Of a stretch of DNA of 64,000 nt, positions 748 to 20,571 are shown piece after piece. The notes beneath the pieces are model-generated. The model ran no database searches. It saw only the letters and a list, made by a program, of their open reading frames with translations, and was not told where the DNA came from. The stretch spans positions 32,001 to 96,000 of IMG/VR virus record IMGVR_UViG_3300023199_000127; one strand, written 5' to 3'. The translations under genes and the position numbers were made by a program. The first letter of the stretch is position 1; each line of letters opens with the position of its first letter. Origin of the DNA: a virus.

Positions 748-768
748 GTGATCTCTGTCTGATACAAT

Positions 769-799: not shown

Positions 800-807
800 G
801 TTCTACC

Positions 808-2419: not shown

Positions 2420-2917
2420 ATGAGCGACGAACAGCCCGTCAACACTGAACAGTCCCCTGTCGACCAGAGGAATCCCGAGGACAAGGTCCCGGGCCTCGAG
2501 CTGACCTGGGGCATGGTAGAAGCCATGGAGATGGATGAGGCCGAGGAGAAGAACTTCATTTCTGCAGCACAGCAGGCGAAGCAGTCCTTCCGTAGCCCTC
2601 AGTTCATCTTCCTCGCCGGCCGCCCGTACATCCATCGCACGGTGAACCGTCGCGAGATGTCCAAGCTGCGCACGGATGTGGCATTGCGTATCAACCAGCT
2701 TGCTGAGAACGCACCTGAGGGACTGGATCCCCAGCAGGCGCGCGCGCAGCTGATGAAGGACACCATGGAGGAAGCCCTGGTCGAGGCATGCAGCATCTAT
2801 CCGAAGTATGATCGAGTTTCGATCCGCGAAGAGGACGCTGGCATCATCACGAGCCTGCATGATTCCATCGTCGAAGCTTCGGGCTACAACCAGCCTGCAT
2901 CCCCCATTCGCCTGTAA
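2420..2917 (+). CDS. Tail assembly chaperone-like protein (165 aa)
   Basis: Acidic and helical, positioned after the tube genes. YIHRTVNRRE and AGIITSLHDSIVEASGY pattern. Confidence 0.6.
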   Translation: MSDEQPVNTEQSPVDQRNPEDKVPGLELTWGMVEAMEMDEAEEKNFISAAQQAKQSFRSPQFIFLAGRPYIHRTVNRREMSKLRTDVALRINQLAENAPEGLDPQQARAQLMKDTMEEALVEACSIYPKYDRVSIREEDAGIITSLHDSIVEASGYNQPASPIRL

Positions 2918-2928
2918 GGGGGAGATCG

Positions 2929-3705
2929 GTGATCCGATCTCCTTGGGACCTCCCCCGTGAAGTGAGGGAGCTGGTACCGCGACTCAAAAAGGACCATGAT
3001 GTCCTATACGTGGTGGAGCTCCAGAATGACACAGGGGAGGTCTATGCGATCTTCCGCCCAATGCGGAAGGAGGAGGTGCGTTACCTCGAAGAGAACGCAC
3101 CGTACCACGATGAGTGGTGGATGGAGGGATGGATTATCGGCCACACTTTGGTGTGGCCTGATCCACATGTTCTCGATGAATGGCTTGCTGGGACCGTTGA
3201 GTCGCTTGGTGACTCGATCATCGAGGCTTCCGGATGGTCTTCGGTCGAGGCAACCGTTGAGGGTATTCACCTCGCTAGGCAAGAGGCGACGTCACTGGAC
3301 TCTGCCATTCTCGCGTTTATCTGCAAGGCATTCCCGTCCATCCATCCGCGGGACCTCCAGAAAATGACCTTGCTCGAGACTCAGATCATGCTGGCCCGTG
3401 CAGAGATGATCCTGGGCCAGCCACTCGATCTGCAGATGTTCCTGGATCCGGAGGGGTACCAGAAGAGGCTGAAGCGCCAGCAGCGCTTCCAGCCGCCTGC
3501 CATGCTCCCGGATGATCCGGGTGCATTCGACACTCCGCCGGAGGCCATGCAGCGGCCTCGCCGGCCAACCCGCCCGCATCACAGCTATCTGCCCGATACT
3601 CCGATGGACGAGAAAGAAATGCTTTCTCCGGACGCAGCCACTAAACTTAGGAGTGGAGATTCCCTCCGAGATGAAATGGCTGCCCATCAGGACTTCCTTG
3701 GCTAA
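2929..3705 (+). CDS. Second tail assembly chaperone paralog (258 aa)
   Basis: GTG start with GGGGGAG SD. IFRPMRKEE and AGTVESLGDSIIEASGW parallel the upstream ORF. Confidence 0.55.
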   Translation: MIRSPWDLPREVRELVPRLKKDHDVLYVVELQNDTGEVYAIFRPMRKEEVRYLEENAPYHDEWWMEGWIIGHTLVWPDPHVLDEWLAGTVESLGDSIIEASGWSSVEATVEGIHLARQEATSLDSAILAFICKAFPSIHPRDLQKMTLLETQIMLARAEMILGQPLDLQMFLDPEGYQKRLKRQQRFQPPAMLPDDPGAFDTPPEAMQRPRRPTRPHHSYLPDTPMDEKEMLSPDAATKLRSGDSLRDEMAAHQDFLG

Positions 3706-6700: not shown

Positions 6701-8192
6701 GGTGAAGCAAGGTGAGGCTCGTCTACCTGGTGAAGGCTATGAGCGCATGCATCGCCTCCATTCGGGTGCCCACGGTACCTACGATGCCATGGATCGCTTT
6801 CTGATCCTTGCTGACGTCGCACCGTACTCGCAGTCGTATCAGCACTACAAGGCCATTGTGAGCTCGTGGGCTAAGGCCGGTGTGCTTGATTCCTATTGGT
6901 CAGAGAAGTTTGACACTGCTCAGAAGCAGGTCAAGGACAAGCTACAGCAGCACGATTTTACACACCGCCGTTTTACTGGACTGGTTACCGCACCCGAAGA
7001 GGAAATGGAGCGGGTAGAGCAGTGGAATCCCCTCCGACGTAGTGTTGCTGCAGCTTGGGAAGTTGCAACTCACGATGTAGTTTCGCGAGCTGCTGTGGCT
7101 GTTCCGTTTGCTGGTGGCATCCTTGGTAATAAGCTTGCTCCTACCAGATCTCCCATCGAGGCATATCAGAAGTGGGAGTTGTACGGTGAAGACTTCGCTG
7201 ATTGGCGCACACCGTACAAGAGTTTCATTCGTCCGATGGCCCATGAACTCACTGCATCAGATCCTGCCACTGCCACATTTGGTGGTGCTATGCTTGGTGT
7301 CTTTGGCGCCAACCCTCTTTCTCGTCTCGTGTTCTCTGGCGTAGGTGCAGCTCTGGCAGGGACCGCCAGCACGGCACGTGCTGTCGGTACCGGGGAGATG
7401 ACGGGTGGCTATATTCCCAGCCATCGCGAAGAGGAGCGTGAAGCCAAGGAGTATCTGGATAAGCTGAAGTACGTGAAGTATCGCCGTCTCCAGCAGATTG
7501 CTGACGCACAGGGCGACCGTACTCTGGCCTACCAGTACAAGAAGATGGCCGGCCGCACTTTGACTGGCATGGACTACTCTTTGCCTCAGGCACACTTCCA
7601 GGCTGCTGCTCGAGCAGCCATGGGTAAGCGTGAGCGTGGCTACTTTGATGCGTTCACCGAGGTGACGGATCCGGAATCCCGGAAGCGCATTCTAGAGATG
7701 GTGCCTGAGTATATGAAGCAGGTGTATGTAGCCGCGTGGTCCAAGCAGGGCGATCCCAGGATGAGGGCTGCCATGCGAGAGATGCAGCAGAGCGGAGATG
7801 CACGTGCCGCAGAATACTTCCGCAATGTGCGTAAGCCCGACAGCACGTGGGCTGGCTGGCACCCCTCGGTATCCCAGTCTGATATCGCCATCAGACTAGC
7901 AAATCAGGAGGCTTTGGATATTCATCGATTCAACCTCTGGGAGGAACAGGTCAGCGAGAGCGAAGCCAGATTCCCTGATCTGCACGTTCCGGTCGATCTG
8001 TCCGATATCCAGAGAACGCCCAGTATGCTGCGCCATGCCGCCCTGGACACCAGTAGGAAACAGTATCGGGCTGCTAGTTTCACTGGAGGCGGGTTTACTG
8101 CTGCAGGTTTGCACCCTGAGGGTATAGAATTGGATGTGATCCCTGACACTGTCACTGAAGCGTTGAGATACGCTGGGAGTCTATTGCAGTAA
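3705..8192 (+). CDS. Giant virion protein at the tape-measure position (1495 aa); possible tape measure/ejection protein
   Basis: Long ORF immediately after the chaperones. Several Gly/Ala-rich hydrophobic stretches (e.g. ATFGGAMLGVFGANPLSRLVFSGVGAALAG). TAATG coupling at both ends. Confidence 0.55.
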   Translation: MAIERENLQNERGYNPYRDQILGQRGTDERHPAETLRENEAQTKALEIQKAQNPLLQRVAQVAFITSGVYMLGRTRARDALRSALDALGYAGRSGLRVAREGARSAVRGAVGSFPETRSLERAFHGVDDPEIRNLELIDTLEGILNFRRTALDENGFARGLRASRAGGPAGSTFDQIATEHVAARYNLDSLEDLRHVTVGDVMENANLQRQIGERQFRTLSEASELGLINERTVLHRNRNVRGLYTTPEGFIQDTRWATAGNALRGLYTATRNFSVAGFRPVELFAGMGKAFTQGEFFGELGVGTVIGRGRKITAQDGISFAMGGNIYRQQRGGFQHAGSGFKLFSSKEGQSAGLMESFQAIMGMHPLQSHRVAQISQAEADAHPVRDFWQQLQDLVGVGPGFKTRPHVAETFVVYPMRRRQAGRMGGGYVPYSEAGGALAGRQGVGFGYVSRRDQRRGFFEKVVNQLQGLNESDAVAARADESRGFMDRVARTMGVDSGDELSALYGNQQRGAFLSPAGMAEFRRSGTIRGQSLVVQRPTTAASYGTRPARFHTGEVGEASYGRATGRTTVRNYVVHDGGVLGNVNLVGTYMTTRLNNLLSATLNYGIRPGSGSYGWVGNIAKIYGGYQAINMGLDYLSYADYLMEEYTGVSPKKWGLKGYIGLRTGLQKAREVTGVTSAADWIEDTMPGSVDSPLSQALRFAGPMAATFLRGRGPGLSGLAAGTFLGYGDIQKSSEDVYDELIGDKDVAYRRGRWWMLGRQPFGGGPVEFYGKSWIARQLSDYQYTDSLYGSKQEYWRHVNKTPTPSNLFNLFESPEEYLSQKHYYTRPYPVDADGSPARMSEAIFNELPEERDVIPDAGARLGLQDGGTHHDRRAIVGPYGAGGKLGYYADKISELSGIYKFALWDLPGFSNNTDNRRLASPEAMASRSREFYDNSMGGMLGLSEAYRRFLPDEKFNKDYNPIPNQMPDWLPGIRSSFEKDRRYYMDFTLGDPYTKVKQGEARLPGEGYERMHRLHSGAHGTYDAMDRFLILADVAPYSQSYQHYKAIVSSWAKAGVLDSYWSEKFDTAQKQVKDKLQQHDFTHRRFTGLVTAPEEEMERVEQWNPLRRSVAAAWEVATHDVVSRAAVAVPFAGGILGNKLAPTRSPIEAYQKWELYGEDFADWRTPYKSFIRPMAHELTASDPATATFGGAMLGVFGANPLSRLVFSGVGAALAGTASTARAVGTGEMTGGYIPSHREEEREAKEYLDKLKYVKYRRLQQIADAQGDRTLAYQYKKMAGRTLTGMDYSLPQAHFQAAARAAMGKRERGYFDAFTEVTDPESRKRILEMVPEYMKQVYVAAWSKQGDPRMRAAMREMQQSGDARAAEYFRNVRKPDSTWAGWHPSVSQSDIAIRLANQEALDIHRFNLWEEQVSESEARFPDLHVPVDLSDIQRTPSMLRHAALDTSRKQYRAASFTGGGFTAAGLHPEGIELDVIPDTVTEALRYAGSLLQ

Positions 8193-11100
8193 TGAGAGAC
8201 GCCGGCTACGGCTACTATTCCTCCAACCTTGCCAACTATCCCGGCCTCGTTGGTCTCCAGGAAGCAGTTCATTCCACCAACTATGCCCCTGTGCGTAGCA
8301 AGGGCGGTTTGAACATGCTGATTAAGAGACATCGTGAGCTCGGCATGGGCATGGGCGCAACCAAGAACGTTGTGCGTATTGTGAGGGCTCTCGAAGATGC
8401 TGGTGTCCACGATATTGGTATCTCCGTACATGCCAAGGGTGGTGTTAGCCTACGTCTACGACAGGGCCAGATTGCCATCCCGGTCTGGGATAAGGCTCGT
8501 GGTGTTGTGCATATGGGCGCAGATACCATGGCTGGCGCCATGCATCTGGTGCCCACAGGGTCCCGACTCAAGAAGATGGACGTGGCTGATGCATTCGTCC
8601 ATCGTTTCCTGAGCCGTATGCCTAGCACTAGCAAGAAGTATGGCGGTGGTGGATCCGTCAAGCTAGGTAGTGGTAACATGATACGCATTAAGGCGATGGA
8701 TCCTGTGCGTAGCGTAGACGCTCAGGTGAAGGTCCTACAGGACCTGAGCCGTACCGCAAAGACAGAATGGATGCAGACTCTGGCCACACAGAATGGTGAG
8801 AGCCAGCTATCCAAGGCCTACTATCTGCAGAACCGCATCCAGATGGATCTTACAGATATGCCCGAGCTGCAACAGCAGGCAGAGCGTATCGGTGATATGG
8901 TCGCGGCTTATCAGAAGGGTGGCGATCCCACAAAGAAGATTCTCCTGAACGACGAACTCGAGCGAAAGATCCATACGGAAATTCTCGCGTTCAAGAATCG
9001 TCTTCAGGAGGTAGCACCGGATGCGCAGCTGACTGGTATCAAGCCTGAGGCTTTCTTGCCCTTCCTGCGTGAGAATAAGACTGCCAACCGAGTGACCATG
9101 TCTACTCTGGGTCCGCAGATGATGGCCTCCATGTACGAGGAGGATGAGGTTCGTAAGAGCCTGCATCAGATGGTCCTGGCTCGAGTGATGCACCAGGACG
9201 ACATCATGCACGATCCGCAGGTGGCCATGGGCCGAGCAGTGGCTCGTGAATCACTGGGGCGCCGGCGCATCGTTCCTATCGTCACCGAGCATGGGTACAT
9301 GGATCAGATGCGCCAGATGGCAGAACTGCGTGCATTGCGTCAGGGACGCGCTGTGCGTCCTGGCGATATGTACCAGCTGACTACACGTATGCCCTTGACG
9401 GTTGGTCTGATGGATCCTGGCCAGTCGCAGATGGCATACAAGTTCCTTCGGGACCATATCGACGATTCTGGAGTTCTGCTTGGTTCTGAGACTGCACGTA
9501 CCGTGGCAGGCATGGAGTATCGGCACCAGAGCAAGGTGGGCAACGTTCAGACGTTTAAGGCCATTGGGCCTATGGCGGCCCACATCAACGCTTTGAGTGA
9601 AGACTCTCATCATCATATTGGCCTGATCGGATCGGACCTGGCTGCCGAAGGCATGCCGGTCCTCGGAACAGATGCCAGTAGGTTCGTGGGTACCCAGGGT
9701 GCGAAGTCTCTGCGTATGCGTGATCGTATCCTTTTGGGCATTGACCAGGAGACGGGTCGCCAGATCACTATGGGAGCTGGTGACCGTCTAGAGTCCATCA
9801 CTCGTAAGGGTGACCAGTACCACTTCAACATCAAGCGTGCACGTGGTGGCAGTGGTATGGGCGCCGGCTTGCTGGTGGACACACGTCGTGTAGGCGTTAC
9901 TGGCTTTATCAGTCCCGAGGTTGGGGTAGACATTGCGGGTGCTGCTGGAGACTTCGGGATGAAGTTTGGTAGCAATCGGGCCCACACATACCGTCAGTAT
10001 GTAGGTCACGTCTTCACCAGACTGGAGCGATCCGCTCTGGACCAGAAGATGCAGCGCAACGTGATGCGCCAAGTTGGCAAGGCTCTGGGAGCCGATGTCA
10101 ATTTCAAGCAGATCGGTAGCCGCGGCAGGGCATTCGTTACGCTTGCAGCCGGTATGCCTTCTATTGACCGGCTGGTCGAAGCAGCCATGTCCAATGACAG
10201 TAGTACTCTACTGAAGGACAAGGTTGTCATGGCAGCTCTGGCCGACAAGAGCATGACTGAGGCTCAGCGCCAGTCTGTAATCAATGCCTTCCGTGTCGAG
10301 AGTACGCCGATGTCCAAGGTCATGAGATCTATGGGCCATGCCGTGAGTGAGCAACAGGCTGCCGAACTAGAGCGTGCCGGTGCTCGCATGTACAAGTTTG
10401 AGGGCACCCCGGTCCAGTCTCGTCATGTGGATATGCCTTCGAAACAGATGGGCCGCTATGGCATGAACTATACGCTGGCTGATCTCAAACTGTTTGAGAC
10501 TCAGATGGCTGGCACTCAGGGTCATGTCGGTAGAGCGTATCGCACGCTCCATGACTTCCTGCGTCCTGATATCAAGACCTCCGGTGTGGGCTCAGATGCT
10601 TACCGCTTCCTCGGTCAGTTCTATGAGGGTATCGATGGTGCCCATGCAGGACTAATGAAGGCCGATACCTACTCACTGCAGCAGATCGCACAGATGAAGA
10701 ATGTGCCGATCCAGTCCACCGCACAGTATCCGGGTGGTGTGATCAAGGAGAGTGAGGTTGCCGGTTCGCTAATTAGCGGCACCGGCAACAACCTGCGTAA
10801 GGGTGGCTTCTATGTGAAGCTCAAGAAGGGCGATCATATGTCTATCGCTCTCATGGACAGGTTTGGAGCCGGCAAGGGTGGTGTGGCTGCAGTGCGGACT
10901 GATACCGTGTTCATTCCGGGCATGGAGTTCTTCCGCGGGTCAGCTGGACTTGAAGGTTTCAATGAGCTCATCATGCAGGGTGGTTCCAGGTTGGATGGCT
11001 CTGGTGGTATCGAGCGCAAGCTTTTCGGCGACTACATGAATGTAGTTAAGACACTGGAGGATTATGCATCTGGCTCTGCAGATGTGACTGCGCTACAGGA

Positions 11101-13087
11101 AAAGCTGAACCGCTTGTACCTCGGCATGTCCGAAGCTATGGTGGGCAAGGACTCTGTAATCAAGCGTTACTTTCAGCCTGACGATATGATCGGGATGACT
11201 GGGCGAACTGTCACCTCTCCCTTCTTCAACCAGAAGGCAGAGGTGGCTACGGTTGGTATCTATCGCGGCGCACTAAAGCGCGCTGCCAAGAACGGAGATC
11301 CCCGTGCTGTTCAGCTGTTGAAGCGAGCCAAGACCGGCAAGGATATCTACGGTACTGTGTTGGCTTATCCCGGTACCGATGCTGCGCACCACGCTGTGGT
11401 GCGTGTGAAGCTGATGGACAAGCAGCACATCGTTGGGAGTGACTTGGCCAAGCAGGTCGGCAATGAAGGTCTTGAGAACCTGATCTTTACCTCGCCCACG
11501 TTGCGTGCTGCCACCGAGCGAGACCTCGACTTCGACTGGAACTACTTCCGGTTCATCACAGGTGATGAAGCTTCACAGGCTGCATCAGTCGTGCATGGTG
11601 AAACAGTACGTCGACTGGACCCGCTACACGCCTTCATTAACGCTGCTCCTGGGGGTGCTACCCTACGTCAACAGGTCTCCGGCATGACACAGGCCCTCGA
11701 GGAACAGATCGGAAAGGATATCTCCGGCTTCAGTCTCGGTGAACTAGCACAGCGTGAGCAATCCCTCATTGAGGGCTCCGCTGTTCTACGCCAGAAGCTT
11801 AGCTCTCCGCTGACATACTCGTCGTTTGTCAGACAGCAGACTCTGGCTGCGTATATCGGCGAAGACCGTGGTGCCGACCTGGTGATGCGTGCACTGGGCG
11901 CAGCGGACAATAGTCCGACCGCCCAGGCTGTGACAGGCGTGAAGGAGATGCTTGCTGATCCCAAGTTCAGGGATACGTTCTCCAATGCCTGGACTGCCAC
12001 ATACTATGCCGCCCTGAAGAAGGGTGCCGCTGATGAGTCCATCGCCACTATGGTGGGTGATGTACGCAGGCTCACACAGGTTGCCTCCGAGGGCGGACGT
12101 GCTGGGCAGCGAGCACAGGGCCAGCTTGCTGAGAAGATGTTTGGGATCTTCCAGAGATCGACGCCTGGCGAGAATATCCTGATGCGTGTGCTCAATCAGT
12201 CCGGACTCACGGAGGGGGAGCACTACCACGTCGGAGCTGCCGGTGAGGCAGCCCAAGGCGCCATTGAACAGATTGGCGGCAAGGTGTATGTGACACAGCC
12301 TGGTCGTGATCTGCTGATGGAGAGATACTTCAACCCCATGGCAGAAATGCTGGGGAACCTGCAGCACATCGAAGATGCGACTAAGGAGACTGCTCTGTGG
12401 CACGCTCTTCGTCCTCTTGCTGGCCAGACTGCACCTGATTATTCACGCGCCCAGGAAACCATGGGTGTCCTCGACCTGTTGGGTCGAGGCATGAAGGATG
12501 GTGCTTCCGCGGAGCATGTTGGTGATGCCGCGCGTGATATGCAGGCCATGATGGATGCGCTTCAGGACACTGATCCCTTGCTGCACAGGGAAATGATGGA
12601 GACTGCAGCAGAGGCTGGTGGCTACCAGGCTATGGCGGATGGTGCCAGAGCAGCAGCCGGCCGCGGGAAGGATATTTTCAATCGCATCTGGAGCAGCAGG
12701 TGGGGCAAGATCGGGACGATCGGTGCCAGCGCTGTTCTGGGCCTTGAACTCTTCGGTGGCCTGGTGGGCGATGATACTCCCCCGCCTGTGATGGCCGGCA
12801 ATGGGGCTCCTATGCCTCCCACGCCTGCTCTACAGGGCGTTGCCCAGAAGCAGCATCCGCAGCCGTATATCCCTCCCAGGCCGGCACGCATCCAGCGTCC
12901 GGCCTCTATGAGGACCCATGTTTCTGCCACCATGAGGGACACAGCCCCCTCATATGGGCAGACCCGTGGGCACAATAGTTCCTTTCCCTCTCACGGACAA
13001 ATCGATTATCCTGAGAGGGACAGGGGCGAGGTTAACCCCTGGGTGATGCGGAATTATATGAGTCAGCGCATGGTGTCGAGCTACTAG
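8192..13087 (+). CDS. Single-chain two-barrel (DPBB) RNA-polymerase-like virion protein (1631 aa) with divergent active site
   Basis: Beta-like motifs: PLTVGLMD..IDDSGVLLGSETAR; HFNIKRAR..GAGLLVDTRRVGVTG..VDIAG. Beta-prime-like motifs: GMTGRTV..TVGIYRGAL..GTVLAYPGT..IFTSPTLRAATERDLDFDWN. All occur in the correct order. Aligned by eye only. Confidence 0.7.
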   Translation: MRDAGYGYYSSNLANYPGLVGLQEAVHSTNYAPVRSKGGLNMLIKRHRELGMGMGATKNVVRIVRALEDAGVHDIGISVHAKGGVSLRLRQGQIAIPVWDKARGVVHMGADTMAGAMHLVPTGSRLKKMDVADAFVHRFLSRMPSTSKKYGGGGSVKLGSGNMIRIKAMDPVRSVDAQVKVLQDLSRTAKTEWMQTLATQNGESQLSKAYYLQNRIQMDLTDMPELQQQAERIGDMVAAYQKGGDPTKKILLNDELERKIHTEILAFKNRLQEVAPDAQLTGIKPEAFLPFLRENKTANRVTMSTLGPQMMASMYEEDEVRKSLHQMVLARVMHQDDIMHDPQVAMGRAVARESLGRRRIVPIVTEHGYMDQMRQMAELRALRQGRAVRPGDMYQLTTRMPLTVGLMDPGQSQMAYKFLRDHIDDSGVLLGSETARTVAGMEYRHQSKVGNVQTFKAIGPMAAHINALSEDSHHHIGLIGSDLAAEGMPVLGTDASRFVGTQGAKSLRMRDRILLGIDQETGRQITMGAGDRLESITRKGDQYHFNIKRARGGSGMGAGLLVDTRRVGVTGFISPEVGVDIAGAAGDFGMKFGSNRAHTYRQYVGHVFTRLERSALDQKMQRNVMRQVGKALGADVNFKQIGSRGRAFVTLAAGMPSIDRLVEAAMSNDSSTLLKDKVVMAALADKSMTEAQRQSVINAFRVESTPMSKVMRSMGHAVSEQQAAELERAGARMYKFEGTPVQSRHVDMPSKQMGRYGMNYTLADLKLFETQMAGTQGHVGRAYRTLHDFLRPDIKTSGVGSDAYRFLGQFYEGIDGAHAGLMKADTYSLQQIAQMKNVPIQSTAQYPGGVIKESEVAGSLISGTGNNLRKGGFYVKLKKGDHMSIALMDRFGAGKGGVAAVRTDTVFIPGMEFFRGSAGLEGFNELIMQGGSRLDGSGGIERKLFGDYMNVVKTLEDYASGSADVTALQEKLNRLYLGMSEAMVGKDSVIKRYFQPDDMIGMTGRTVTSPFFNQKAEVATVGIYRGALKRAAKNGDPRAVQLLKRAKTGKDIYGTVLAYPGTDAAHHAVVRVKLMDKQHIVGSDLAKQVGNEGLENLIFTSPTLRAATERDLDFDWNYFRFITGDEASQAASVVHGETVRRLDPLHAFINAAPGGATLRQQVSGMTQALEEQIGKDISGFSLGELAQREQSLIEGSAVLRQKLSSPLTYSSFVRQQTLAAYIGEDRGADLVMRALGAADNSPTAQAVTGVKEMLADPKFRDTFSNAWTATYYAALKKGAADESIATMVGDVRRLTQVASEGGRAGQRAQGQLAEKMFGIFQRSTPGENILMRVLNQSGLTEGEHYHVGAAGEAAQGAIEQIGGKVYVTQPGRDLLMERYFNPMAEMLGNLQHIEDATKETALWHALRPLAGQTAPDYSRAQETMGVLDLLGRGMKDGASAEHVGDAARDMQAMMDALQDTDPLLHREMMETAAEAGGYQAMADGARAAAGRGKDIFNRIWSSRWGKIGTIGASAVLGLELFGGLVGDDTPPPVMAGNGAPMPPTPALQGVAQKQHPQPYIPPRPARIQRPASMRTHVSATMRDTAPSYGQTRGHNSSFPSHGQIDYPERDRGEVNPWVMRNYMSQRMVSSY

Positions 13088-16000
13088 ATGGCTAAGACGA
13101 TTAACGAGCGTCTAGGGTCCTTGTCTATCTTGGACCCGGAGACCGGGAATAGCATCCCGGTTAGCCTGGACCTGATCCAGCGGTATCTTCTGGATGAGGA
13201 CAACCTCATGGTCATCATTGGCAGAGCTAGAGCAGCAGCAGCTGCCAAGGAGCTCGCTGATATTGAGGCTGGCGTGGATCCCACGGCGGCTGCCAATGAG
13301 CTCAGAGCCAACCTGGACGCCCTGGATTCTGTGTCCGAAACTCTGTTCAACCGCAATCGCTCCATCAAGAATGATGAGACGCGCCGGCGTACAATCTCCG
13401 ACGCTGCCCGATCCTTTGAGGATCGTACCTATTCTTATGCCAAGCCTGCAGTCATGAGGATTGGCATGATTCCCCTTGAGGATGGTCTGGTCAAGAATGG
13501 CGCCCAGGCTATCGAAGTGGAAGACGATTACGATATTCGTCGAGTGGGATCGCTGCGCTCTGACACTGATGCAGTGGTTCGCGGCAAGTCCCAACACACG
13601 GAGATTCGGATCAGCCTGACCTTCCCTGATTTGGATTCTGTCAACACTGTGTTCCGTCCTCTACTGGCCCAGTGTCGTGCCGCGCCGGTTATCAGTATTG
13701 AGTCTGATCTCCTTGTTGATGTGCTCATTAACAAGTTCGCTACACCAGAGCTGCTGAATGCACTCCTACAGGTGGGTGCCGCCAAGACCAAGACGGATGA
13801 AGATGATCCGCTGGAGAAGCTTACCGAAGAGAGCCGTGAGAGCCTGGACAAGCTCAAGGATCTGCTCTCCTCTGGTGATTCCGCGACCATGTATGCTGTG
13901 GCACGTGCTCGACAGAAGGCCACACAGGAAGCCAGTAAGCCGAATGCTAATCCCACTGTGGAACAGGCACGTCCTTTCGACGTGCCGGATTATGGGATCG
14001 CCATTCCTGTGGCTCTCCGTGAGGTCCATGTGTCAACGAAGAAAAGCGGCACCCATGCCCTGGATGCCACCTTTATCTTTGTGCGCATCAACGAGTCTGC
14101 CTTTATGCAGTCTGGTCTTCGCTGGCGTGACTCCAACGGTTGGCCCACCTATGACGTGACCAAGTGCGATACTCTGTATCGGTACTTCCATAAGACCTAC
14201 CTGACCCCGTCAGACCAGAAGGATTCTCAAACCTATATGGCTCCCATCCCCAAGTCGGATGCGGAAGTCCAGGCCCCCATGATCCTGCGATGGGAGAACT
14301 ACCATACGGGGGAAGAGAAGAGTATTGATCTAAGCGACTTTGAGTGCGTGATCCATCAAATGAATGTTGGGTGGTCGAACAAGCTTTGCATGATGCCTCT
14401 CATCGGCCAGCACAATCCAGCTGTGCAGTATCTCGGTACTTCCAACGGAGTGGCCAAGGTACAGATCATTACCAAGGATAGACAGCTGGTGCGCACCCTG
14501 CACCAGCTGAAGGATGAACAAGACGAGATCTCTCGCCGGCACAGTGCACTGGATCGTGATGATCGGATTATCATCGAGAATGGTGTCCTAAACATGACTG
14601 GCATGCGTGAGTTTGTTATCCAGTCCTTGACCACAACGACTGATCCGCGCAGTCCTGAGCTTATCTACTTGAACATCACATTTGTGGAGTCCAAGTACAC
14701 CCTTCGTGAGCGTGAACAGGTTACGCTCTTCCAGGATCACTACGACAAGGATCATCTGAAGGCGTTGTGGAGGTTCATGTTCAAGACCATGAACGAGGCG
14801 ATGGACAAGACACTACGACGTCAGGAATGGAGCCAGACCGAGCGAGAGGTCATGTCCACTCTCTTTGGTAGCTCATTCCTTTACAGGAATGTGACTGGCG
14901 CAGCGGTGGACTTCTCCGCTGTGCGTGCCGACATTGAAAAGGGCACTGGATTTTTCGGCACAAGGCTGGAGAGCGGTAGGACCCCTGGTGAAGCCTACAG
15001 GCTCCAGGACTCCTTCCGGAAGGCAACAGCTCCCGATAACGGAATGCCTGGTATTCTTAACAACTCTGTGATGGCTGCAGCTATCTCCCACTTCATCACC
15101 TCTGGTGGAACCGACTCCAGTCGGATCCGCTGGTTGAAGAATAGAGAAAGAGAAGCAGAGAAGTCGGTCGAGGATCCTGCCAGTTGGTTGAGCTGGGTGA
15201 ATTTCACCAGGAACAACCAGGTCACTCGTGTGAAGAACGAGCTCCAGGAACAGGATCTGACCGTCATCAAATACATCTTTGACTGGCCGACCCAGGCAGA
15301 TCTTAATGGAGCTCGCGCCACCATGCTGGCCTGGCTTGACGAGCTGCAGACCCACGAGGTGGGTCCGGAGGTGGACAAGGGCTCCAGCATGCTGTTCCGC
15401 GTGTTCATGCTGGCCCGAGATCATCTACGGCTTGATGCCCCCGCATTCAAGCAGCAGTTCTGGGACTCTGTTCTAGAGGTGCTCTCCAACCGTCAGTCTG
15501 ATGCTGCTGTGCAGGGTAAGAAGTGGCTCTCTGAGGATCTCGCCCAGGCCCAGTCTCTTCTTATTGGTGTGCTTGCCAGTGGAGTGGCTGATAGGTGGGA
15601 GGGCTTTGACCAGAGCCGATTCTTGAGCCAGAAGAAGTTCAAGGCACTGGACGCCAACGGGCCGGACGAGCCGTCTGACAACTACCCGGACATGTATCTT
15701 CCGACCTATGCAGATCTGTTCAGTAACCCGCCCCTCGGGTTGGTACTTGGTCTGCCTATCCCGGTTGTACAACAGGTAGATGCCAGTCAGGCAAAGTATG
15801 CCCCGCTGCGGGGACAGAGTCGCAAGGGTGATCCGCAGGCTCTCTGGATCAACTTTGCTCCGCGATACAAGGATCTTGGTAAGCGCCCTCCGTTCGAGGT
15901 TCGGGCTGCCTTTGGAAAGCCGGAAGAGGCCAGCAATGCTATTGCTCGTACGATTAATGATCGCGTCGAGCCTGGGTTCTTCTACTGGAAGGGTTCCTGG

Positions 16001-19000
16001 AAGGATGAGCTGGGAGCGGTAGAGAAGTACCGCAATCAGATGGAGCAGATCCGCGATGAGGCCAAGAGCCACATCATCCAACTCGATCACAGTATCAGTG
16101 CCGACGGTGCTTTGCTCGAAGGATCGCTTCGTAACATGATCGACTACCTGATGGGAGAGGAGTACCCGAGTGCCAACTCGGGTACTGTGCAAGTCCTGAG
16201 TAACCGACAGCAGGCCAAGGATCTGATCCGTAAGCTGGATCGAGTCAATGCTGAGGTACCGGTTATCAACCTGATTGACTCGGAGGGTCGATTGGTTGCA
16301 TATCTGCGCCATGCTCCCCAGTCGAATGATCGTGGCAGGACGCGTCACTTCGAGCTTGTCTCCTTTAAGGGTGGTCCTCTGAAAATCCGCAACCCCTTCA
16401 ATAACTCTGTGTTGGACCACGATGAGATGTTGAAGCCGGGTCAGATCCAGGAAGTGGTTAACCAGATCAAGGATGACCACTTCTCCATGCAGCGTGCGTA
16501 CCCCACGTATCGCGTATACGCTATTGAGGAGGATCGGGAACAGCTCATCTACTCCGATGACTTCTATGGTGTGAATTGTGTTTCCAGCATTGAAATCCAC
16601 CACTCCAAGCGCAATGCATCTTTGGCAATCCTGAGGATTACGAACACCAGCGGTCAGTTTGAGAACGATCAATTCCTACCGTTCGCAGAAGAGGGTAACT
16701 ACGAGGTCAATGCTGACGACGAAGGCGAACGCTTCTTTAGGCGTTTCCGGTTCCGCTCTGGGACGCTGATCCAGATCCGCATGGGCTATACCGGCAAGCC
16801 CACCGAACTGGACATTGTCTTCTCTGGTCGTGTGGTCGAGGTACAGCATGGTCCTGTAATTCAACTGATCTGTCAGGGTCACCGTACCGATCTCCTCCAG
16901 GAGATCGAGTACGCCAATACCAATAAGGATCCCTACCGCATCCTGGAGGATTGTTTCAAGAAGATTGGCAATGCTCCCAGCCTGGGTCGTACGGTGAAGA
17001 TGGGCCATATTAACCGCACGATGATCAGAGACTTCCTTGGCGAAAGAGCGGCTAAGCAAGTGACCTGGTGGGGTAAATTGTGGCGTCACGAGGTCAACTC
17101 CCACTTGAGGAATGTCTATGTGCACTCCAACTCTCAGGTGGTTGGTGGCTGGTTTGATTTCATTGATCGTGGGATTACCGACCAGTATCTCGAGGGTATT
17201 GGGCAGAAGGTGGTGCGCTTCTTCAATGATGTTCCGGGTGTGGAGCTGTTGATCCCGGATGCTGCCTTCCCTGCATGGGTGGTACCGCTGCAGCCGTTCT
17301 GGGACATGATTCAGGAAATGGTTCGCCATCGTCCTGGCAATATCGCGTACGTGGTGCCGTGGGAGCAGGATGGGACTCTTTTCTTTGGGAAGCCCACAAC
17401 TCCTTATCTTGCAGAGAACCCTCCGACTGCAGAACGACGTGCATACAACCGCCTGGATCGGGTTGTGCGCAAACTGTCTCTGCAGGACATCTCTGCCATT
17501 ATCCTTGAGAGATTTCTCACCTCACGCTTCTATAAGAACCGTCCTCTGTTGATGGATGCACTCAGCAATCGTACGAAGCTTCGTGAGAAGAATGCCAGTG
17601 TCAATAGCTTGGCAGAGCTGGATCGTCTTACGTTCAGCTGCTATGGGCATATGACTTCGTTCTCGTCCCCGGGGCTCCGGGATGAGTCACTGCGTGGGAA
17701 TAATAGACTGCACTCTCTCGACTTCACCTCTGAGTGGGACTATCTCCTTAAGTGGAATCCCGGTCTGGTGAAGCTGGCCACCTCCTTCTTCTTCGGCATG
17801 GAGTGGCAGCCGGTCTGGCCCAATGGGTTTGAGGGGGACTGGAAGCTTTGTTTCCGTGGGCTCATGCCGCCCTTGCAGGCCGGCGGTAGCAAGGAGCTCT
17901 CTCGTTCTGCAGAAGACTGGAAGAGCCAGTGGGTAGACTCGGATAACTCCTCACTGAATGCGATGCGTGTACCGACCTCATTCCTCGATACGAAGGCTCA
18001 AGCTAACGCCATGATTCGAGTATTGGAGAAGCAGCAGATTGAGCTACAGGCTGCCCGAGACTCAATTAATGAGATGCGTAGTCAGGGTCGTATCCCTGCA
18101 AGGATCCTGGACCAGCTTGAAGAGCAGGTCCAGGAGCGCAGAGAGGTATTCGAGCAGTTTGGTGTGCTGACTGCTGAACAGCGTGCCGCACAGATCGCCC
18201 GAGTTAGAGATGCTTTGGGTGGCTTCTCGCTACCTGGTGCATCTGGTCGCCCTGACCACTATGAGGAGCTGGGGACGATCGTGGAGTTCCGTGCTAACCA
18301 TTATCGGATGTTCATCCATGCCCTGGCTAACTTCGTCAGGGACCAGATTGGCGGAGAGACTACTCTGGGCAGACAGATCCGCAAGGAGGCTGTTACTAAG
18401 GCCATGGATGATCATCGCAGCTACATGCTGCCGCCGGGGTGGAAGCAGTTCCGCGACTATCACGTTCTCACTTCTGAGAACGATATCATCGAGAACTCCA
18501 TTACTGCCTCCATGCAGCAGATGCACAACGTTGTGCTCATCCGCCATCCGGAGGCTGGCGTCGAGCTGGTTTCTGGAGATGAGCTACAGGAGGACTCGGA
18601 GGTCGAGGATCTAAATAACACCGATGGCCAGCTGGCTCGTAAGCGTGTCATGTTCCAGGAAGACACCACTTGGAATAGCTTCCCAAAGGATGGGGGACTT
18701 CCCTTCCGTCCTGCTCTCGGCAAGGAGCACCGCAAGCTTCTGGTGAAGGTGGAGAACAACGCCTTTGATCAGGAGTCGGCTTTCCGTTGCCTGATCTCTA
18801 ATATGCAGCAGGCGCTGCAGCCCATGTACCGTGGCTACATCACCTTCATTGGCCGCCACATGAAGCCGCACGATGTCATCCATATCAAGGATGACATCTC
18901 CGATATGATTGGTCCGGTGGAAGTGGATGAGATTACACACCACTTCACTCCTGAAGGTGGCTGGGTATCCTCAGTGGTGCCGCATGCTCTGGTCCATGCA

Positions 19001-19702
19001 AACGATATTGTTTCTCGTGTACAGCACAATGCTATCGTTAGCTGGTTTGGAGATGCAGCTTCCTGGTACGAAAAGAACTGGTGGTGGATTGAGCTCGGCA
19101 TGCTAGTGGCTGCACCGCTCACTGGCGGTGCTAGCGTGGTTGGTGGTGCTGCCCTGCGTGGCCTGGCAAAGGTTGGTATCAAGACCGGTCTGCGAAAGGG
19201 GCTACGTGGCACTGTCGCACGCATTGGAAACAGGACCCTGCGTCAGGCAATGATCAAGGCCATTACCCGTAAGGCCGTCAGGTCCAAGACTACGGTCGCC
19301 GGCGCCCTCAATGTTATGGCTCGTAACCCCCATACCCTATTCGGTACTATCGGAAGAACGATGGGTATGGGAGTGCGCACCGTGAACCGACTCAGTATCC
19401 CCGCCTATCTGGGAGCCGTCGGCTACAACACCTTCGTCAGTACGCCCCATATCAAGGCTAAGTTTGGTGATGTCGAAGTGCCGGTTGAGATTCAGCCGCT
19501 CATGCTCAAGGGGCGGCCGTACACCGCCGGCCTGGAGTATGGCTATGAAGATGTGTATTCCTTCTGGGAAAAGGGGCGTGGCTGGATCAAGGATGTCTGG
19601 TCTGATACCAAGGAGGTTGCCGAAAACCTCTTCAGATTCCGTGGGTATGAGCCTCGGAGTCTTGGTGAGTCTCTGTATAATCAGAGTCTAAAGAGTGACT
19701 AA
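13088..19702 (+). CDS. Giant baseplate hub protein (gp27/late-control-D-like C-terminal half; 2204 aa)
   Basis: IQIRMGYTG..VFSGRVVEVQHGPVIQLICQG and YRGYITFIG..KPHDVIHIKD..GPVEVDEITHHFTPEGGWVSSV are hub-type motifs. Lies upstream of the gp25 and J genes. Confidence 0.7.
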   Translation: MAKTINERLGSLSILDPETGNSIPVSLDLIQRYLLDEDNLMVIIGRARAAAAAKELADIEAGVDPTAAANELRANLDALDSVSETLFNRNRSIKNDETRRRTISDAARSFEDRTYSYAKPAVMRIGMIPLEDGLVKNGAQAIEVEDDYDIRRVGSLRSDTDAVVRGKSQHTEIRISLTFPDLDSVNTVFRPLLAQCRAAPVISIESDLLVDVLINKFATPELLNALLQVGAAKTKTDEDDPLEKLTEESRESLDKLKDLLSSGDSATMYAVARARQKATQEASKPNANPTVEQARPFDVPDYGIAIPVALREVHVSTKKSGTHALDATFIFVRINESAFMQSGLRWRDSNGWPTYDVTKCDTLYRYFHKTYLTPSDQKDSQTYMAPIPKSDAEVQAPMILRWENYHTGEEKSIDLSDFECVIHQMNVGWSNKLCMMPLIGQHNPAVQYLGTSNGVAKVQIITKDRQLVRTLHQLKDEQDEISRRHSALDRDDRIIIENGVLNMTGMREFVIQSLTTTTDPRSPELIYLNITFVESKYTLREREQVTLFQDHYDKDHLKALWRFMFKTMNEAMDKTLRRQEWSQTEREVMSTLFGSSFLYRNVTGAAVDFSAVRADIEKGTGFFGTRLESGRTPGEAYRLQDSFRKATAPDNGMPGILNNSVMAAAISHFITSGGTDSSRIRWLKNREREAEKSVEDPASWLSWVNFTRNNQVTRVKNELQEQDLTVIKYIFDWPTQADLNGARATMLAWLDELQTHEVGPEVDKGSSMLFRVFMLARDHLRLDAPAFKQQFWDSVLEVLSNRQSDAAVQGKKWLSEDLAQAQSLLIGVLASGVADRWEGFDQSRFLSQKKFKALDANGPDEPSDNYPDMYLPTYADLFSNPPLGLVLGLPIPVVQQVDASQAKYAPLRGQSRKGDPQALWINFAPRYKDLGKRPPFEVRAAFGKPEEASNAIARTINDRVEPGFFYWKGSWKDELGAVEKYRNQMEQIRDEAKSHIIQLDHSISADGALLEGSLRNMIDYLMGEEYPSANSGTVQVLSNRQQAKDLIRKLDRVNAEVPVINLIDSEGRLVAYLRHAPQSNDRGRTRHFELVSFKGGPLKIRNPFNNSVLDHDEMLKPGQIQEVVNQIKDDHFSMQRAYPTYRVYAIEEDREQLIYSDDFYGVNCVSSIEIHHSKRNASLAILRITNTSGQFENDQFLPFAEEGNYEVNADDEGERFFRRFRFRSGTLIQIRMGYTGKPTELDIVFSGRVVEVQHGPVIQLICQGHRTDLLQEIEYANTNKDPYRILEDCFKKIGNAPSLGRTVKMGHINRTMIRDFLGERAAKQVTWWGKLWRHEVNSHLRNVYVHSNSQVVGGWFDFIDRGITDQYLEGIGQKVVRFFNDVPGVELLIPDAAFPAWVVPLQPFWDMIQEMVRHRPGNIAYVVPWEQDGTLFFGKPTTPYLAENPPTAERRAYNRLDRVVRKLSLQDISAIILERFLTSRFYKNRPLLMDALSNRTKLREKNASVNSLAELDRLTFSCYGHMTSFSSPGLRDESLRGNNRLHSLDFTSEWDYLLKWNPGLVKLATSFFFGMEWQPVWPNGFEGDWKLCFRGLMPPLQAGGSKELSRSAEDWKSQWVDSDNSSLNAMRVPTSFLDTKAQANAMIRVLEKQQIELQAARDSINEMRSQGRIPARILDQLEEQVQERREVFEQFGVLTAEQRAAQIARVRDALGGFSLPGASGRPDHYEELGTIVEFRANHYRMFIHALANFVRDQIGGETTLGRQIRKEAVTKAMDDHRSYMLPPGWKQFRDYHVLTSENDIIENSITASMQQMHNVVLIRHPEAGVELVSGDELQEDSEVEDLNNTDGQLARKRVMFQEDTTWNSFPKDGGLPFRPALGKEHRKLLVKVENNAFDQESAFRCLISNMQQALQPMYRGYITFIGRHMKPHDVIHIKDDISDMIGPVEVDEITHHFTPEGGWVSSVVPHALVHANDIVSRVQHNAIVSWFGDAASWYEKNWWWIELGMLVAAPLTGGASVVGGAALRGLAKVGIKTGLRKGLRGTVARIGNRTLRQAMIKAITRKAVRSKTTVAGALNVMARNPHTLFGTIGRTMGMGVRTVNRLSIPAYLGAVGYNTFVSTPHIKAKFGDVEVPVEIQPLMLKGRPYTAGLEYGYEDVYSFWEKGRGWIKDVWSDTKEVAENLFRFRGYEPRSLGESLYNQSLKSD

Positions 19703-20571
19703 TGGATCCTATTAAGCGCACTGCCCATGATGAGGCCTCTAAAAGAGCATCGCGTCTGACGCGGTGTCGGGTGCTAAGCTTCAACCCCAATGGTGATGGA
19801 GGACCTGTGGCTTTTGTAGTGCCGTACACCAAGTGGGACAACTGGCGCCGGGAGTATGATGATCTCGAGGCTATGCTCTCTGAGCATGGCCTCAATATCA
19901 TTGTGCGGTTCCCCGAAGGTATCAAGTTCTACGTCGACCCAGACAAGTATGATGTGGTGCTATTTCAGGAGCCCATGTTTGCTACCGAGGGGTTTCCGAA
20001 ACCTCGTGCATCTGTCAGAGCTGCTGATGCTAGAGTAGCTCGTGGTTGGACCGAGGATGATGTGAACCTGATGACTCCTCAGCTGGACGCCCCTGATAAG
20101 CATCAGGTGCGCTGGAGAGCTCAGGCCGCTGTACGCGGCCATCGCATGTTCACACAATGCGAGGATACACCCCAGTTCACCCAGCCTGGAGACTTCTGGT
20201 TTGGTCCTCTGCGGATCTCTTCAGACGGCGCCCGGTTTGAGTTCTGGGGTCAGGGACACGACCAGATCATGGCCATGTCCCGGGCAGCCATGAATTTCAC
20301 CTCGGAGGCCCTGCGATTCCCTAAGACCCGGGGATTCAACGTATCCTGGCGTGGGAGGATTGAGAACCCCATGCAGGACCTGACAGGGTCTACTGCAGTC
20401 ACTCCCTACAAGCGCTTCATTTACACTCTCTTCGACCCTGGTATCATTGTAGGGGCCGTCCAGGCCATCCGGACGTTCTTCAAGGAGCTGGAGGGCGATT
20501 CAGGGTTCAAATTTGAGCGGATCGACCGCCATGAGGTGGTCGACTATGAGGTTGAGGTACCGATCTTCTAA
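19702..20571 (+). CDS. Probable baseplate spike/hub-associated protein (289 aa)
   Basis: Position between hub and gp25-like gene. N-terminal beta-rich segment TRCRVLSFNP. Confidence 0.4.
   Translation: MDPIKRTAHDEASKRASRLTRCRVLSFNPNGDGGPVAFVVPYTKWDNWRREYDDLEAMLSEHGLNIIVRFPEGIKFYVDPDKYDVVLFQEPMFATEGFPKPRASVRAADARVARGWTEDDVNLMTPQLDAPDKHQVRWRAQAAVRGHRMFTQCEDTPQFTQPGDFWFGPLRISSDGARFEFWGQGHDQIMAMSRAAMNFTSEALRFPKTRGFNVSWRGRIENPMQDLTGSTAVTPYKRFIYTLFDPGIIVGAVQAIRTFFKELEGDSGFKFERIDRHEVVDYEVEVPIF

What the first reader, a model, noticed from the sequence alone, without database searches (positions are those of the whole stretch)
2420..19702. Candidate tail-delivered transcription/ejection system: chaperone pair + two giants + giant hub
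Three consecutive tightly coupled genes total about 5300 aa (1495+1631+2204), and each has Gly-rich membrane-type segments. One has an RNAP fold. Hypothesis: unfolded cargo is loaded into the tail tube by dedicated chaperones, ejected on sheath contraction, and forms a membrane conduit plus a polymerase-like motor that transcribes or pulls in the genome. Precedent: transcription-driven entry in T7 and N4.
Basis: inference. Interest (0 to 1): 0.78.

Follow-up and report, generated by a model that had tools for sequence, protein, structure and literature searches.

The report
RNA-polymerase-like giant in a phage tail module
The tail genes of an uncultured 181-kb contractile-tailed phage include a 1631-residue protein with an RNA-polymerase catalytic core and intact metal-binding residues, which the phage probably injects through its tail to start transcription; dozens of related phages, some cultured, carry the same unrecognised protein.

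Summary
Five tightly coupled genes (165, 258, 1495, 1631 and 2204 aa) lie between the tail tube genes and the baseplate. They are syntenic with Bacillus phage 0305phi8-36 gp143-gp147.

The middle giant, G2, is a very divergent homolog of the RNA polymerase beta-prime (largest) subunit:
- A 61-sequence profile hits only beta-prime/Rpb1 chains in the PDB (best E 5.6e-6).
- 50 of 51 non-redundant homologs keep a DxDxD triad at the same relative position.

A second, beta-type barrel could not be found. G2's own subclade has lost the Arg of the NRAP motif, so activity is not shown.

The same protein family occurs in the cultured phages ME3 and WH1. The phage also encodes a separate small beta/beta-prime RNAP outside the window.

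The closest published precedent is Thermus phage P23-45 gp96, a tape-measure-fused virion RNAP, rather than T7 or N4. "Unfolded cargo", "membrane conduit" and "motor" remain inference.

This scan has already reported the same kind of tail-module RNAP on other DNA (51 notes in at least 43 genomes). I found no publication describing it for contractile-tailed phages.

The parts
31..747 (+). Tail tube protein (238 aa)
   Evidence: BLASTP to 0305phi8-36 gp140 (GenBank note 'tail tube') E 1.6e-36 and to WH1 gp101 E 3e-54. phrog_9206 E 1.3e-44; its 'major head protein' label is a mis-annotation.
808..1656 (+). Tail tube paralog (282 aa)
   Evidence: BLASTP to 0305phi8-36 gp141 ('tail tube paralog') E 9e-16. 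phrog_9206.
1656..2417 (+). 253-aa protein, counterpart of 0305phi8-36 gp142 / WH1 gp099
   Evidence: BLASTP to WH1 gp099 E 1e-8 and to gp142 E 5e-5. gp142 is a virion protein by mass spectrometry according to the GenBank note.
2420..2917 (+). Tail assembly chaperone A (165 aa), lambda G-like
   Evidence: BLASTP to ME3 gp033 E 4e-9, WH1 gp098 E 1e-6 and 0305phi8-36 gp143 E 2e-6. Residues 116-157 match B258 residues 65-104 (E 9e-6).
2929..3705 (+). Tail assembly chaperone B (258 aa), lambda GT-like without a frameshift
   Evidence: BLASTP to 0305phi8-36 gp144 E 2e-6. Shares a domain with A165. The two-gene arrangement is described in PMC2147016.
3705..8192 (+). G1 (1495 aa): gp145-family virion giant. 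Conserved C-terminal half (about 635-1495) of unknown fold, with a Gly/Ala-rich segment at 1185-1228.
   Evidence: tblastn to 0305phi8-36 gp145 (virion protein by MS), WH1 gp096, ME3 gp035 and MTATph1 CDS26. 36 clusters in the 5.8-billion-protein set. 142 confirmed IMG/VR relatives, 80 loci kept. No PDB sequence match with the family profile.
8192..13087 (+). G2 (1631 aa): middle giant, a beta-prime-type RNA-polymerase-like protein in the tape-measure slot
10739..11638 (+). G2 residues 850-1149: region homologous to the N-terminal ~450 residues of beta-prime/Rpb1 (clamp core, 'GK..GR' element, RxP..H strand and double-psi beta-barrel A)
11522..11536 (+). Catalytic-type Asp triad D1111-L-D1113-F-D1115, preceded by R1110
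   Evidence: Invariant in the 6-sequence alignment A1 and the 61-sequence alignment A4. A DxDxD is present in 50 of 51 non-redundant middle giants, against about 13 chance occurrences expected.
12698..12772 (+). G2 residues 1503-1527: Gly/Ala-rich hydrophobic segment, followed by a proline-rich stretch (GAPMPP)
   Evidence: Kyte-Doolittle 1.68. Conserved in all aligned middle giants, including ME3 gp036 and WH1 gp095.
13088..19702 (+). G3 (2204 aa): giant baseplate hub of the gp147 type. Uncharged Gly/Ala-rich run at residues 2003-2023 (window 19094-19156).
   Evidence: phrog_20474 E 1.4e-34. tblastn/BLASTP to WH1 gp094, MTATph1 CDS32, ME3 gp037 and 0305phi8-36 gp147. gp147 contains a T4 gp27-like hub domain according to PMC2147016. 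Run statistics.
19702..21005 (+). Two small coupled genes (289 and 144 aa) at the position of the spike and small baseplate proteins
   Evidence: Position only. No family hit and no BLAST match to gp148 or ME3 gp038-040.
21005..22153 (+). Baseplate wedge subunit (382 aa), T4 gp6 / P2 gpJ-like
   Evidence: phrog_6 E 3.7e-40.

Best explanation
The region is the tail-lumen and hub part of a 0305phi8-36-like contractile-tail module. A two-gene G/GT-type chaperone pair (A165, B258) assists assembly of two giants in the tape-measure slot (G1, G2) onto a giant gp27-type hub (G3).

Shown: G2 is a very divergent member of the two-barrel RNA polymerase superfamily. Residues 850-1149 correspond to the N-terminal clamp core and the catalytic double-psi beta-barrel of the beta-prime/Rpb1 subunit, with an intact DxDxD metal-binding triad.

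Inferred mechanism: G2 is built into the virion inside or at the base of the tail tube, as P23-45 gp96 is. On sheath contraction it is expelled with G1. Its conserved C-terminal hydrophobic, proline-rich end holds it at the cell envelope, and its polymerase core transcribes the first genes of the incoming DNA. In this phage those could include the separate small beta/beta-prime RNAP encoded in the early arm, which would then take over. Whether G1 or G2, or both, set the tail length is open.
For: Module identity: synteny and sequence homology with 0305phi8-36 gp140-gp147, ME3 gp030-gp037 and WH1 gp094-gp101. A gp6/J-like wedge lies downstream.

RNAP homology of G2:
- The 61-sequence core profile A4 hits 113 PDB sequences. 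The 60 shown are all beta-prime/Rpb1/gamma/AR9 beta-prime, best E 5.6e-6. The alignment runs through GKQGRFR...SGRSV, NRAPTLH and NADFDGD.
- The AF2 model (pLDDT 69, pTM 0.63) gives 21 Foldseek PDB hits at E<=1e-3, and the top 50 are all RNAP largest subunits.
- hhalign to the phage's own beta-prime-like ORF gives 95.8% probability.

Selection on the active site: P1060 and D1111/D1113/D1115 are the only invariant columns among 61 sequences that share 11% mean column identity. 50 of 51 middle giants carry a DxDxD at 0.6-0.8 of their length, while the neighbouring G1 proteins show no enrichment.

Virion and tail location:
- The gene lies between the chaperones and the hub and is translationally coupled to both neighbours.
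- It has a conserved TMP-like C-terminal hydrophobic segment.
- The positional counterpart gp146 and the G1 homolog gp145 were found in 0305phi8-36 virions by mass spectrometry, according to GenBank notes.
- WH1 gp095, a family member at E 1e-37, is annotated as a virion structural protein.

Precedent: P23-45 gp96 is an active TMP-fused vRNAP that transcribes pre-early genes, including the nvRNAP gene (PMC10770324).

Second RNAP in this genome: a beta-like ORF (PF00562, 8.8e-22) and a beta-prime-like ORF with DCDGD.
Against: - No beta-type second barrel was found in G2 or G1 by hhalign or by profile-to-PDB search. Without it the active site would be incomplete.
- G2 and its closest relatives have Ala/His/Gly where 69% of the family, and beta-prime, have the NRAP Arg/Lys. 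The residues at the N and G positions of NADFDGD are E and F.
- The model is of medium confidence. TM-scores are low because only about 300 of 911 residues align.
- 0305phi8-36 gp146 and MTATph1 CDS27 occupy the same slot without any DxDxD and are not recognised by the family profile. So the slot's core role may be structural.
- A second RNAP accompanies the middle giant in only 3 of 10 motif-bearing genomes checked: this phage plus 2 of 6 IMG/VR relatives, and not ME3, WH1 or the other four.
- No virion proteomics or expression data exist for this phage.
Confidence: 0.5

Rival explanations
1. G2 is an exapted, catalytically dead RNA-polymerase relic. It now serves only as a structural tail-lumen protein: a tape measure, a plug or a membrane-insertion protein.
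For: The NRAP arginine is lost and the residues flanking the triad are non-canonical in G2's subclade. No second barrel was detected. Slot-mates in 0305phi8-36 and MTATph1 lack the motif altogether but are retained. gp146 was assigned as the tape measure from its length (PMC2147016).
Against: The three aspartates and the RxP proline are the only invariant columns across 61 extremely diverged sequences. A DxDxD is kept in 50 of 51 lineages. That pattern is hard to explain without selection on metal binding.
Confidence: 0.15
2. G2 uses the beta-prime-type barrel and Asp triad for a different metal-dependent reaction on the entering genome. Examples are a DNA-pulling translocase, a primase or DNA polymerase (as in two-barrel PolD), or a nucleotidyl transferase or nuclease.
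For: The ribose-discriminating positions are altered: A1058 for R, E1109 for N. The two-barrel fold also supports DNA synthesis in archaeal PolD (PMC10770324). No recognisable beta-type barrel, bridge helix or trigger loop was found by sequence.
Against: All significant sequence and structure matches are to RNA polymerases, not PolD. Other family members keep near-canonical AGDFDGD / KADYDGD loops and the RxP arginine.
Confidence: 0.15
3. G2 is a genuine phage RNA polymerase, but it is not carried in the tail lumen. Either it is packaged in the capsid like phiKZ, N4 and crAss-like virion RNAPs, or it is not in the virion at all and is simply encoded in the late tail operon.
For: Apart from P23-45, all well-studied virion RNAPs are capsid-internal (established knowledge; PMC7824862). 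Gene position does not prove location. The beta-prime-like N-terminal clamp-core region is present, whereas P23-45 gp96 is clampless, which its authors suggested is an adaptation to the narrow tube.
Against: G2 is translationally coupled between the G1 tape-measure-slot gene and the hub, directly after the tail chaperones. This arrangement holds in every homolog context examined, with conserved gene order. The C-terminal hydrophobic, proline-rich end resembles tape-measure C-termini.
Confidence: 0.15

Closest known systems
Thermus phage P23-45 gp96 (also P74-26, G20c, TSP4): virion two-barrel RNAP fused to the tail tape measure protein (PMC10770324; PDB 8h2n)
   Different: P23-45 is a non-contractile siphovirus. 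Its RNAP is the N-terminus of one 5002-aa TMP that also carries a metallopeptidase. Here the tail is contractile and G2 is a separate 1631-aa gene behind another giant (G1). The RNAP part is central and matches the beta-prime subunits of multisubunit RNAPs better than it matches gp96. A clamp-core-like region is present. No second barrel is shown, and activity is untested.
Bacillus phage 0305phi8-36 gp143-gp147 tail module (PMC2147016)
   Same: The gene order is the same (tube, tube paralog, gp142-like, two-gene chaperonin, three giants, baseplate). There is detectable homology for the tube, the chaperones, G1 (gp145) and G3 (gp147).
   Different: gp146, the slot-mate of G2, was called the tape measure. 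It has no DxDxD and is not matched by the G2 family profile. 0305phi8-36 instead has a YonO/RdRP-type RNAP, orf99, which this phage lacks.
Acinetobacter phage vB_AbaM_ME3 gp036 and Bacillus phage vB_BceM_WH1 gp095 (both unannotated, or labelled 'virion structural protein')
   Same: They belong to the same protein family. The A4 profile gives E 9e-9 and 1e-37. Foldseek against BFVD hits the ME3 protein at E 1.5e-5 over 852 columns. They occupy the same slot, carry DHDQD and DHDGD at the same relative position, and have the same C-terminal hydrophobic segment.
   Different: There is no pairwise BLAST similarity to G2. They keep the RxP arginine that G2 lacks. Neither genome has a Pfam-detectable second RNAP.
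Multisubunit RNAP beta-prime subunits of phages AR9 and phiKZ (PDB 7s00/7s01, 7ogp)
   Different: Those enzymes have identified beta-type partner subunits, and their virion forms are capsid-packaged. They are not encoded in the tail module and have no TMP-like C-terminus.

Membership tests
Two-barrel (DPBB) RNA polymerase superfamily, beta-prime/Rpb1-type catalytic module | Double-psi beta-barrel A carrying a DxDxD metal-binding loop | tested here: met
Two-barrel (DPBB) RNA polymerase superfamily, beta-prime/Rpb1-type catalytic module | Beta-prime conserved elements upstream of the triad (GKxGRFR...SGRSV; NRxPxLH strand) | tested here: inconclusive
   G985-K986, G1004-R1005, P1060 and H1066 are present and aligned. 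The Arg of NRAP is Ala1058 in G2, although it is K/R in 69% of the family.
Two-barrel (DPBB) RNA polymerase superfamily, beta-prime/Rpb1-type catalytic module | Second barrel (beta/Rpb2-type DPBB-B) supplying basic residues to the active site, on the same chain or on a partner | tested here: inconclusive
   There is no signal by hhalign of A1, A4 or A3 against the phage's own beta-like ORF, nor by the upstream profile A5 against the PDB. VIA-align matches to the single-chain enzymes (QDE-1, gp62, gp66, gp96) start at model residue ~93, which hints at an upstream element. The upstream region was not folded on its own.
Two-barrel (DPBB) RNA polymerase superfamily, beta-prime/Rpb1-type catalytic module | Templated RNA synthesis | not testable with these tools
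   Needs recombinant protein and an in vitro transcription assay.
Tape-measure-fused virion RNAP (P23-45 gp96 type) | RNAP core on a protein encoded in the tape-measure slot, between the tail chaperones and the hub/tip | tested here: met
   The gene order is chaperones, G1, G2, hub. It is conserved in all contexts examined. A second giant, G1, lies between the chaperones and G2.
Tape-measure-fused virion RNAP (P23-45 gp96 type) | Specific relatedness to gp96 (flat, clampless architecture; metallopeptidase in the TMP part) | tested here: inconclusive
Tape-measure-fused virion RNAP (P23-45 gp96 type) | Presence in the virion and ejection into the host | not testable with these tools
   The evidence is only indirect: MS detection of gp145 and gp146 in 0305phi8-36, and the 'virion structural protein' label on WH1 gp095.
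Tail tape measure protein | Long, largely helical protein whose length scales with tail length, with C-terminal hydrophobic segments | tested here: inconclusive
   G2 1125-1500 is predicted to be helical, but at low confidence. A conserved hydrophobic segment lies at 1503-1527. The tail length of this uncultured phage is unknown.
Lambda G/GT-type tail assembly chaperones, two-gene form (0305phi8-36 gp143/gp144) | Two adjacent genes upstream of the tape-measure slot that share a common domain (C-terminus of the first, N-terminus of the second) | tested here: met
   A165 residues 116-157 match B258 residues 65-104 at E 9e-6. Both are homologous to gp143/gp144, ME3 gp033 and WH1 gp097/098.
T4 gp27-type baseplate hub, 'hyperplastic' gp147 form | Homology to the gp147 core that contains the gp27 domain, and a position before the baseplate wedge genes | tested here: met
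   G3 residues 1134-1292 and 1786-1973 align to gp147 residues 849-1034 and 1194-1415. phrog_20474 E 1.4e-34. The wedge gene lies 1.3 kb downstream. The gp27 fold itself was not modelled here.

The most novel reading that the evidence does not exclude
G1, G2 and the hub G3 form an obligate ejected assembly in which G2 supplies only the beta-prime half of a polymerase. The missing beta-equivalent would be an unrecognisable fold in G2's first 850 residues or in G1's strongly conserved C-terminal half. This would be a new split virion RNA polymerase that also acts as the tail-length ruler and envelope-spanning conduit of contractile-tailed jumbo phages, coupling DNA entry to first transcription.
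Probability: 0.15. Interest if true: 0.85.

Novelty: new variant of a known kind. Interest (0 to 1): 0.7.

Why it matters
Only one published case, P23-45 and its close relatives (all siphoviruses), links a cellular-type RNA polymerase to the tail tape-measure slot. This work shows that a whole lineage of large contractile-tailed phages carries a beta-prime-like protein with a conserved catalytic triad in that slot. The lineage has at least 50 non-redundant members in IMG/VR and includes the cultured phages ME3 and WH1, and probably Microcystis phage MaMV-DC.

The protein has been annotated as 'hypothetical' or 'virion structural'. Its motif-less slot-mate in 0305phi8-36 was annotated 'tape measure'.

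If the protein is active, these phages inject their own transcription enzyme through the tail. That would explain how they start infection independently of the host RNAP. It would also change how the tail-lumen content of myoviruses is viewed. The idea can be tested directly in cultured phages.

Tried and rejected
Single-sequence searches of the giants found nothing useful:
- Pfam found no family.
- phmmer of G1, G2 and G3 against the PDB found nothing.
- megablast and tblastn of G2 against 50,697 phage records found nothing.
- The ESM atlas gave nothing usable for G2 or G1.

Comparisons within the slot also failed:
- Pairwise BLAST of G2 against ME3 gp036 and 0305phi8-36 gp146 was not significant.
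- hhalign of the 6-sequence profile against ME3 gp036 gave no hit.
- The 6-sequence profile against the PDB gave no hit.

The first AF2 model, from a 7-sequence MSA, was too poor to use (pLDDT 52). Even so, about 47 of its top 50 weak Foldseek hits were already beta-prime chains.

A 1081-aa ORF with DLDID was considered as a non-virion RNAP. It is DNA polymerase III alpha.

YonO/RdRP-type and T7-type RNAPs were not found in this genome. The T7 search had no positive control.

G1 as the beta subunit of a split RNAP has no support. A beta-type barrel in G2 upstream of residue 850 has no sequence support. The conserved glycines G633 and G645 form a hairpin with no conserved basic residues, so they are not diagnostic.

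The idea that every phage with a DxDxD middle giant also has a second RNAP is rejected. It holds in only 3 of 10 motif-bearing genomes checked.

The Chaban et al. survey table does not list ME3, WH1 or 0305phi8-36.
Full report
**1. The observation**

The window is part of a 180,792-bp IMG/VR virus record estimated at 93% complete; the window covers positions 32001-96000. All five ORFs are at the stated coordinates on the + strand: 165, 258, 1495, 1631 and 2204 aa. From 1656 to 22153 every gene junction is an overlap of 1 nt or a gap of at most 11 nt. The three giants total 5330 aa. Pfam finds nothing in any of them, and single-sequence PDB searches find nothing.

**2. What the module is**

- The two ORFs upstream (31-747 and 808-1656) are the tail tube and its paralog. 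They match 0305phi8-36 gp140 at E 1.6e-36 and gp141 at E 9e-16. The 'major head protein' label of phrog_9206 comes from a mis-annotated GenBank product whose note says 'tail tube'.
- The 382-aa ORF at 21005-22153 is a gp6/gpJ-type baseplate wedge subunit (phrog_6, E 3.7e-40).
- G1 matches the virion protein gp145 of Bacillus phage 0305phi8-36, WH1 gp096, ME3 gp035 and MTATph1 CDS26.
- G3 matches gp147, WH1 gp094 and ME3 gp037. Hardies et al. showed that gp147 contains a T4 gp27-like hub domain (PMC2147016).
- A165 and B258 match the annotated tail chaperonins gp143 and gp144. A165's C-terminus is homologous to B258's N-terminus (E 9e-6). This is the frameshift-free two-gene version of lambda G/GT described for 0305phi8-36.
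- Gene order is identical in 0305phi8-36, ME3 and WH1. It is also identical in every metagenomic context of a G1 or G2 homolog that I fetched.

**3. The middle giant is RNA-polymerase-like**

G2 has a DLDFD at residues 1111-1115. An exhaustive phmmer search of G2 301-1500 against 1.84 billion cluster representatives found only 7 proteins. In their alignment R1110, D1111, D1113, D1115, Y1059, P1060 and H1066 are invariant.

G1 is much better conserved than G2, with 36 clusters, so I used it as an anchor. That gave 80 IMG/VR loci, plus five more loci fetched by exact protein look-up. The giant immediately downstream of G1 carries a DxDxD in 50 of 51 non-redundant complete cases, clustered at 0.7-0.8 of its length. 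About 13 chance occurrences would be expected in the whole set. The adjacent G1 proteins show no enrichment: 10 of 51, against 14.5 expected. Many loops are near-canonical, for example AGDFDGD, KADYDGD and GADFDDDQ.

The evidence from the 61-sequence motif-anchored alignment (A4, with G2 490-1400 as first sequence) is as follows:
- Its only invariant columns are P1060 and the three aspartates, at 11% mean column identity.
- Its profile hits 113 PDB sequences. The 60 shown are all beta-prime, Rpb1, cyanobacterial gamma or phage AR9 beta-prime, with best E 5.6e-6. The alignment runs through GKQGRFR...SGRSV, NRAPTLH and NADFDGD.
- AlphaFold2 on this alignment gave pLDDT 69 and pTM 0.63, with the barrel blocks at 85-95.
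- Foldseek against the PDB gave 21 hits at E<=1e-3. The top 50 are all RNAP largest subunits, led by AR9 beta-prime at 2.1e-4.
- hhalign of A4 against the phage's own beta-prime-like ORF gives 95.8% probability (E 6.7e-9). G2 850-1124 aligns to its residues 25-230.
- The same profile recovers WH1 gp095 (E 1e-37) and ME3 gp036 (E 9e-9).
- Foldseek against BFVD hits the ME3 protein (E 1.5e-5), a 'minor tail protein' of an uncultured phage and a Microcystis phage MaMV-DC protein, ahead of ordinary viral RNAP subunits.

**4. What is not shown**

I could not find the second, beta-type barrel. It did not appear in G2's upstream 850 residues or in G1. The only hint is that structural matches to single-chain two-barrel enzymes start about 400 residues upstream of the beta-prime-like part.

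G2 and its closest relatives have Ala/His/Gly where 69% of the family has the NRAP Arg/Lys. From established knowledge of beta-prime, that residue contacts the substrate ribose. So catalysis by G2 itself is uncertain, even though the triad is invariant in its subclade.

0305phi8-36 gp146 and MTATph1 CDS27 sit in the same slot with no DxDxD and no profile match. Whatever the slot does structurally can therefore be done without the motif.

The 'Gly-rich membrane-type segments' are conserved, but only G3's is a clean uncharged run.

**5. Genome context**

Outside the window, this phage encodes a compact beta-like ORF (590 aa; PF00562, 8.8e-22) and an adjacent beta-prime-like ORF (561 aa, with DCDGD; PDB hits to Pol V, 7e-6). 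They lie on the opposite strand in the replication arm. This gives a two-polymerase layout like that of P23-45, where the virion enzyme transcribes the gene of the non-virion enzyme.

The pairing is not general. A Pfam-detectable second RNAP is present in 2 of 6 other near-complete IMG/VR relatives. It is absent from ME3, WH1 and MTATph1. 0305phi8-36 has the YonO type instead.

**6. Mechanism and comparison**

The best-supported reading is that G2 is a tail-module, probably tail-lumen, RNA-polymerase-like protein. It would be expelled on contraction, held at the envelope by its C-terminal hydrophobic, proline-rich end, and would transcribe the first genes.

What is shown: the homology, the conserved triad, the slot, and the conserved C-terminus. 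What is inferred: virion and tube location, ejection, activity, and any conduit or motor role.

Compared with gp96:
- This is a contractile-tailed lineage.
- G2 is a separate gene behind another giant.
- It is closer to multisubunit beta-prime subunits than to gp96.
- It has a clamp-core-like region.

For these reasons I rate it a new variant of a known kind.

In the searchable literature I found only the P23-45 paper. Its survey table does not list ME3, WH1 or 0305phi8-36. This scan has already noted the same kind of object on other DNA: 51 notes in at least 43 genomes, with 8 follow-up reports shown that agree. It also noted this very gene in overlapping windows.

**7. Verdict**

My confidence in the RNAP homology is about 0.95. 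My confidence in the full tail-delivered active-polymerase mechanism is about 0.5.

Noticed in passing
outside the window: genome G000 150923-152695 (-) and 153015-154700 (-); loci L096:1291-3063 and L098:532-2217: A compact two-subunit RNA polymerase in the replication arm. It has a 590-aa beta-like ORF (PF00562, 8.8e-22) and a 561-aa beta-prime-like ORF with DCDGD at residue 217, with a 135-aa ORF between them. It is a candidate non-virion RNAP.
   Followed up: partly
outside the window: genome G000 142157-145402 (-); locus L003:3158-6403: A full-length DNA polymerase III alpha (DnaE) with PHP, NTPase, finger and HhH domains, next to an SF2 helicase. This is the same replicase type as in 0305phi8-36.
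   Followed up: yes
window 3705-8192, residues ~635-1495 of G1: G1's C-terminal half is far better conserved than G2. Its family shares invariant blocks such as NPIPNxMPxWLPG and LHRLHSGxPGVYDAMDRF, yet it matches no Pfam family, PDB sequence or atlas cluster. Two distant homologs (P0035, P0039) carry intein domains PF14528/PF14890.
   Followed up: partly
L009 (Moorella phage MTATph1) 18235-25591: The middle-giant slot appears to be interrupted by a transposase gene (22261-23748). CDS27 (1309 aa) lies upstream. CDS31 (313 aa) lies downstream and matches the C-terminus of WH1 gp095.
   Followed up: no
L006 14761-21762: The G3 (hub) homolog of the closest relative carries a staphylococcal-nuclease domain (PF00565) that G3 of this window lacks. 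This is an example of the exchangeable domains on the giant hub.
   Followed up: no
L001 (0305phi8-36) 18161-25774, and record positions 209484-211547: gp146, annotated as the tape measure, has no DxDxD and no match to the middle-giant profile. This phage is also the only one checked that has a YonO/RdRP-type RNAP. The two facts may be a case of replacement.
   Followed up: partly
window 31-1656: PHROG family 9206 is labelled 'major head protein', but its founding members are tail tube proteins.
   Followed up: yes
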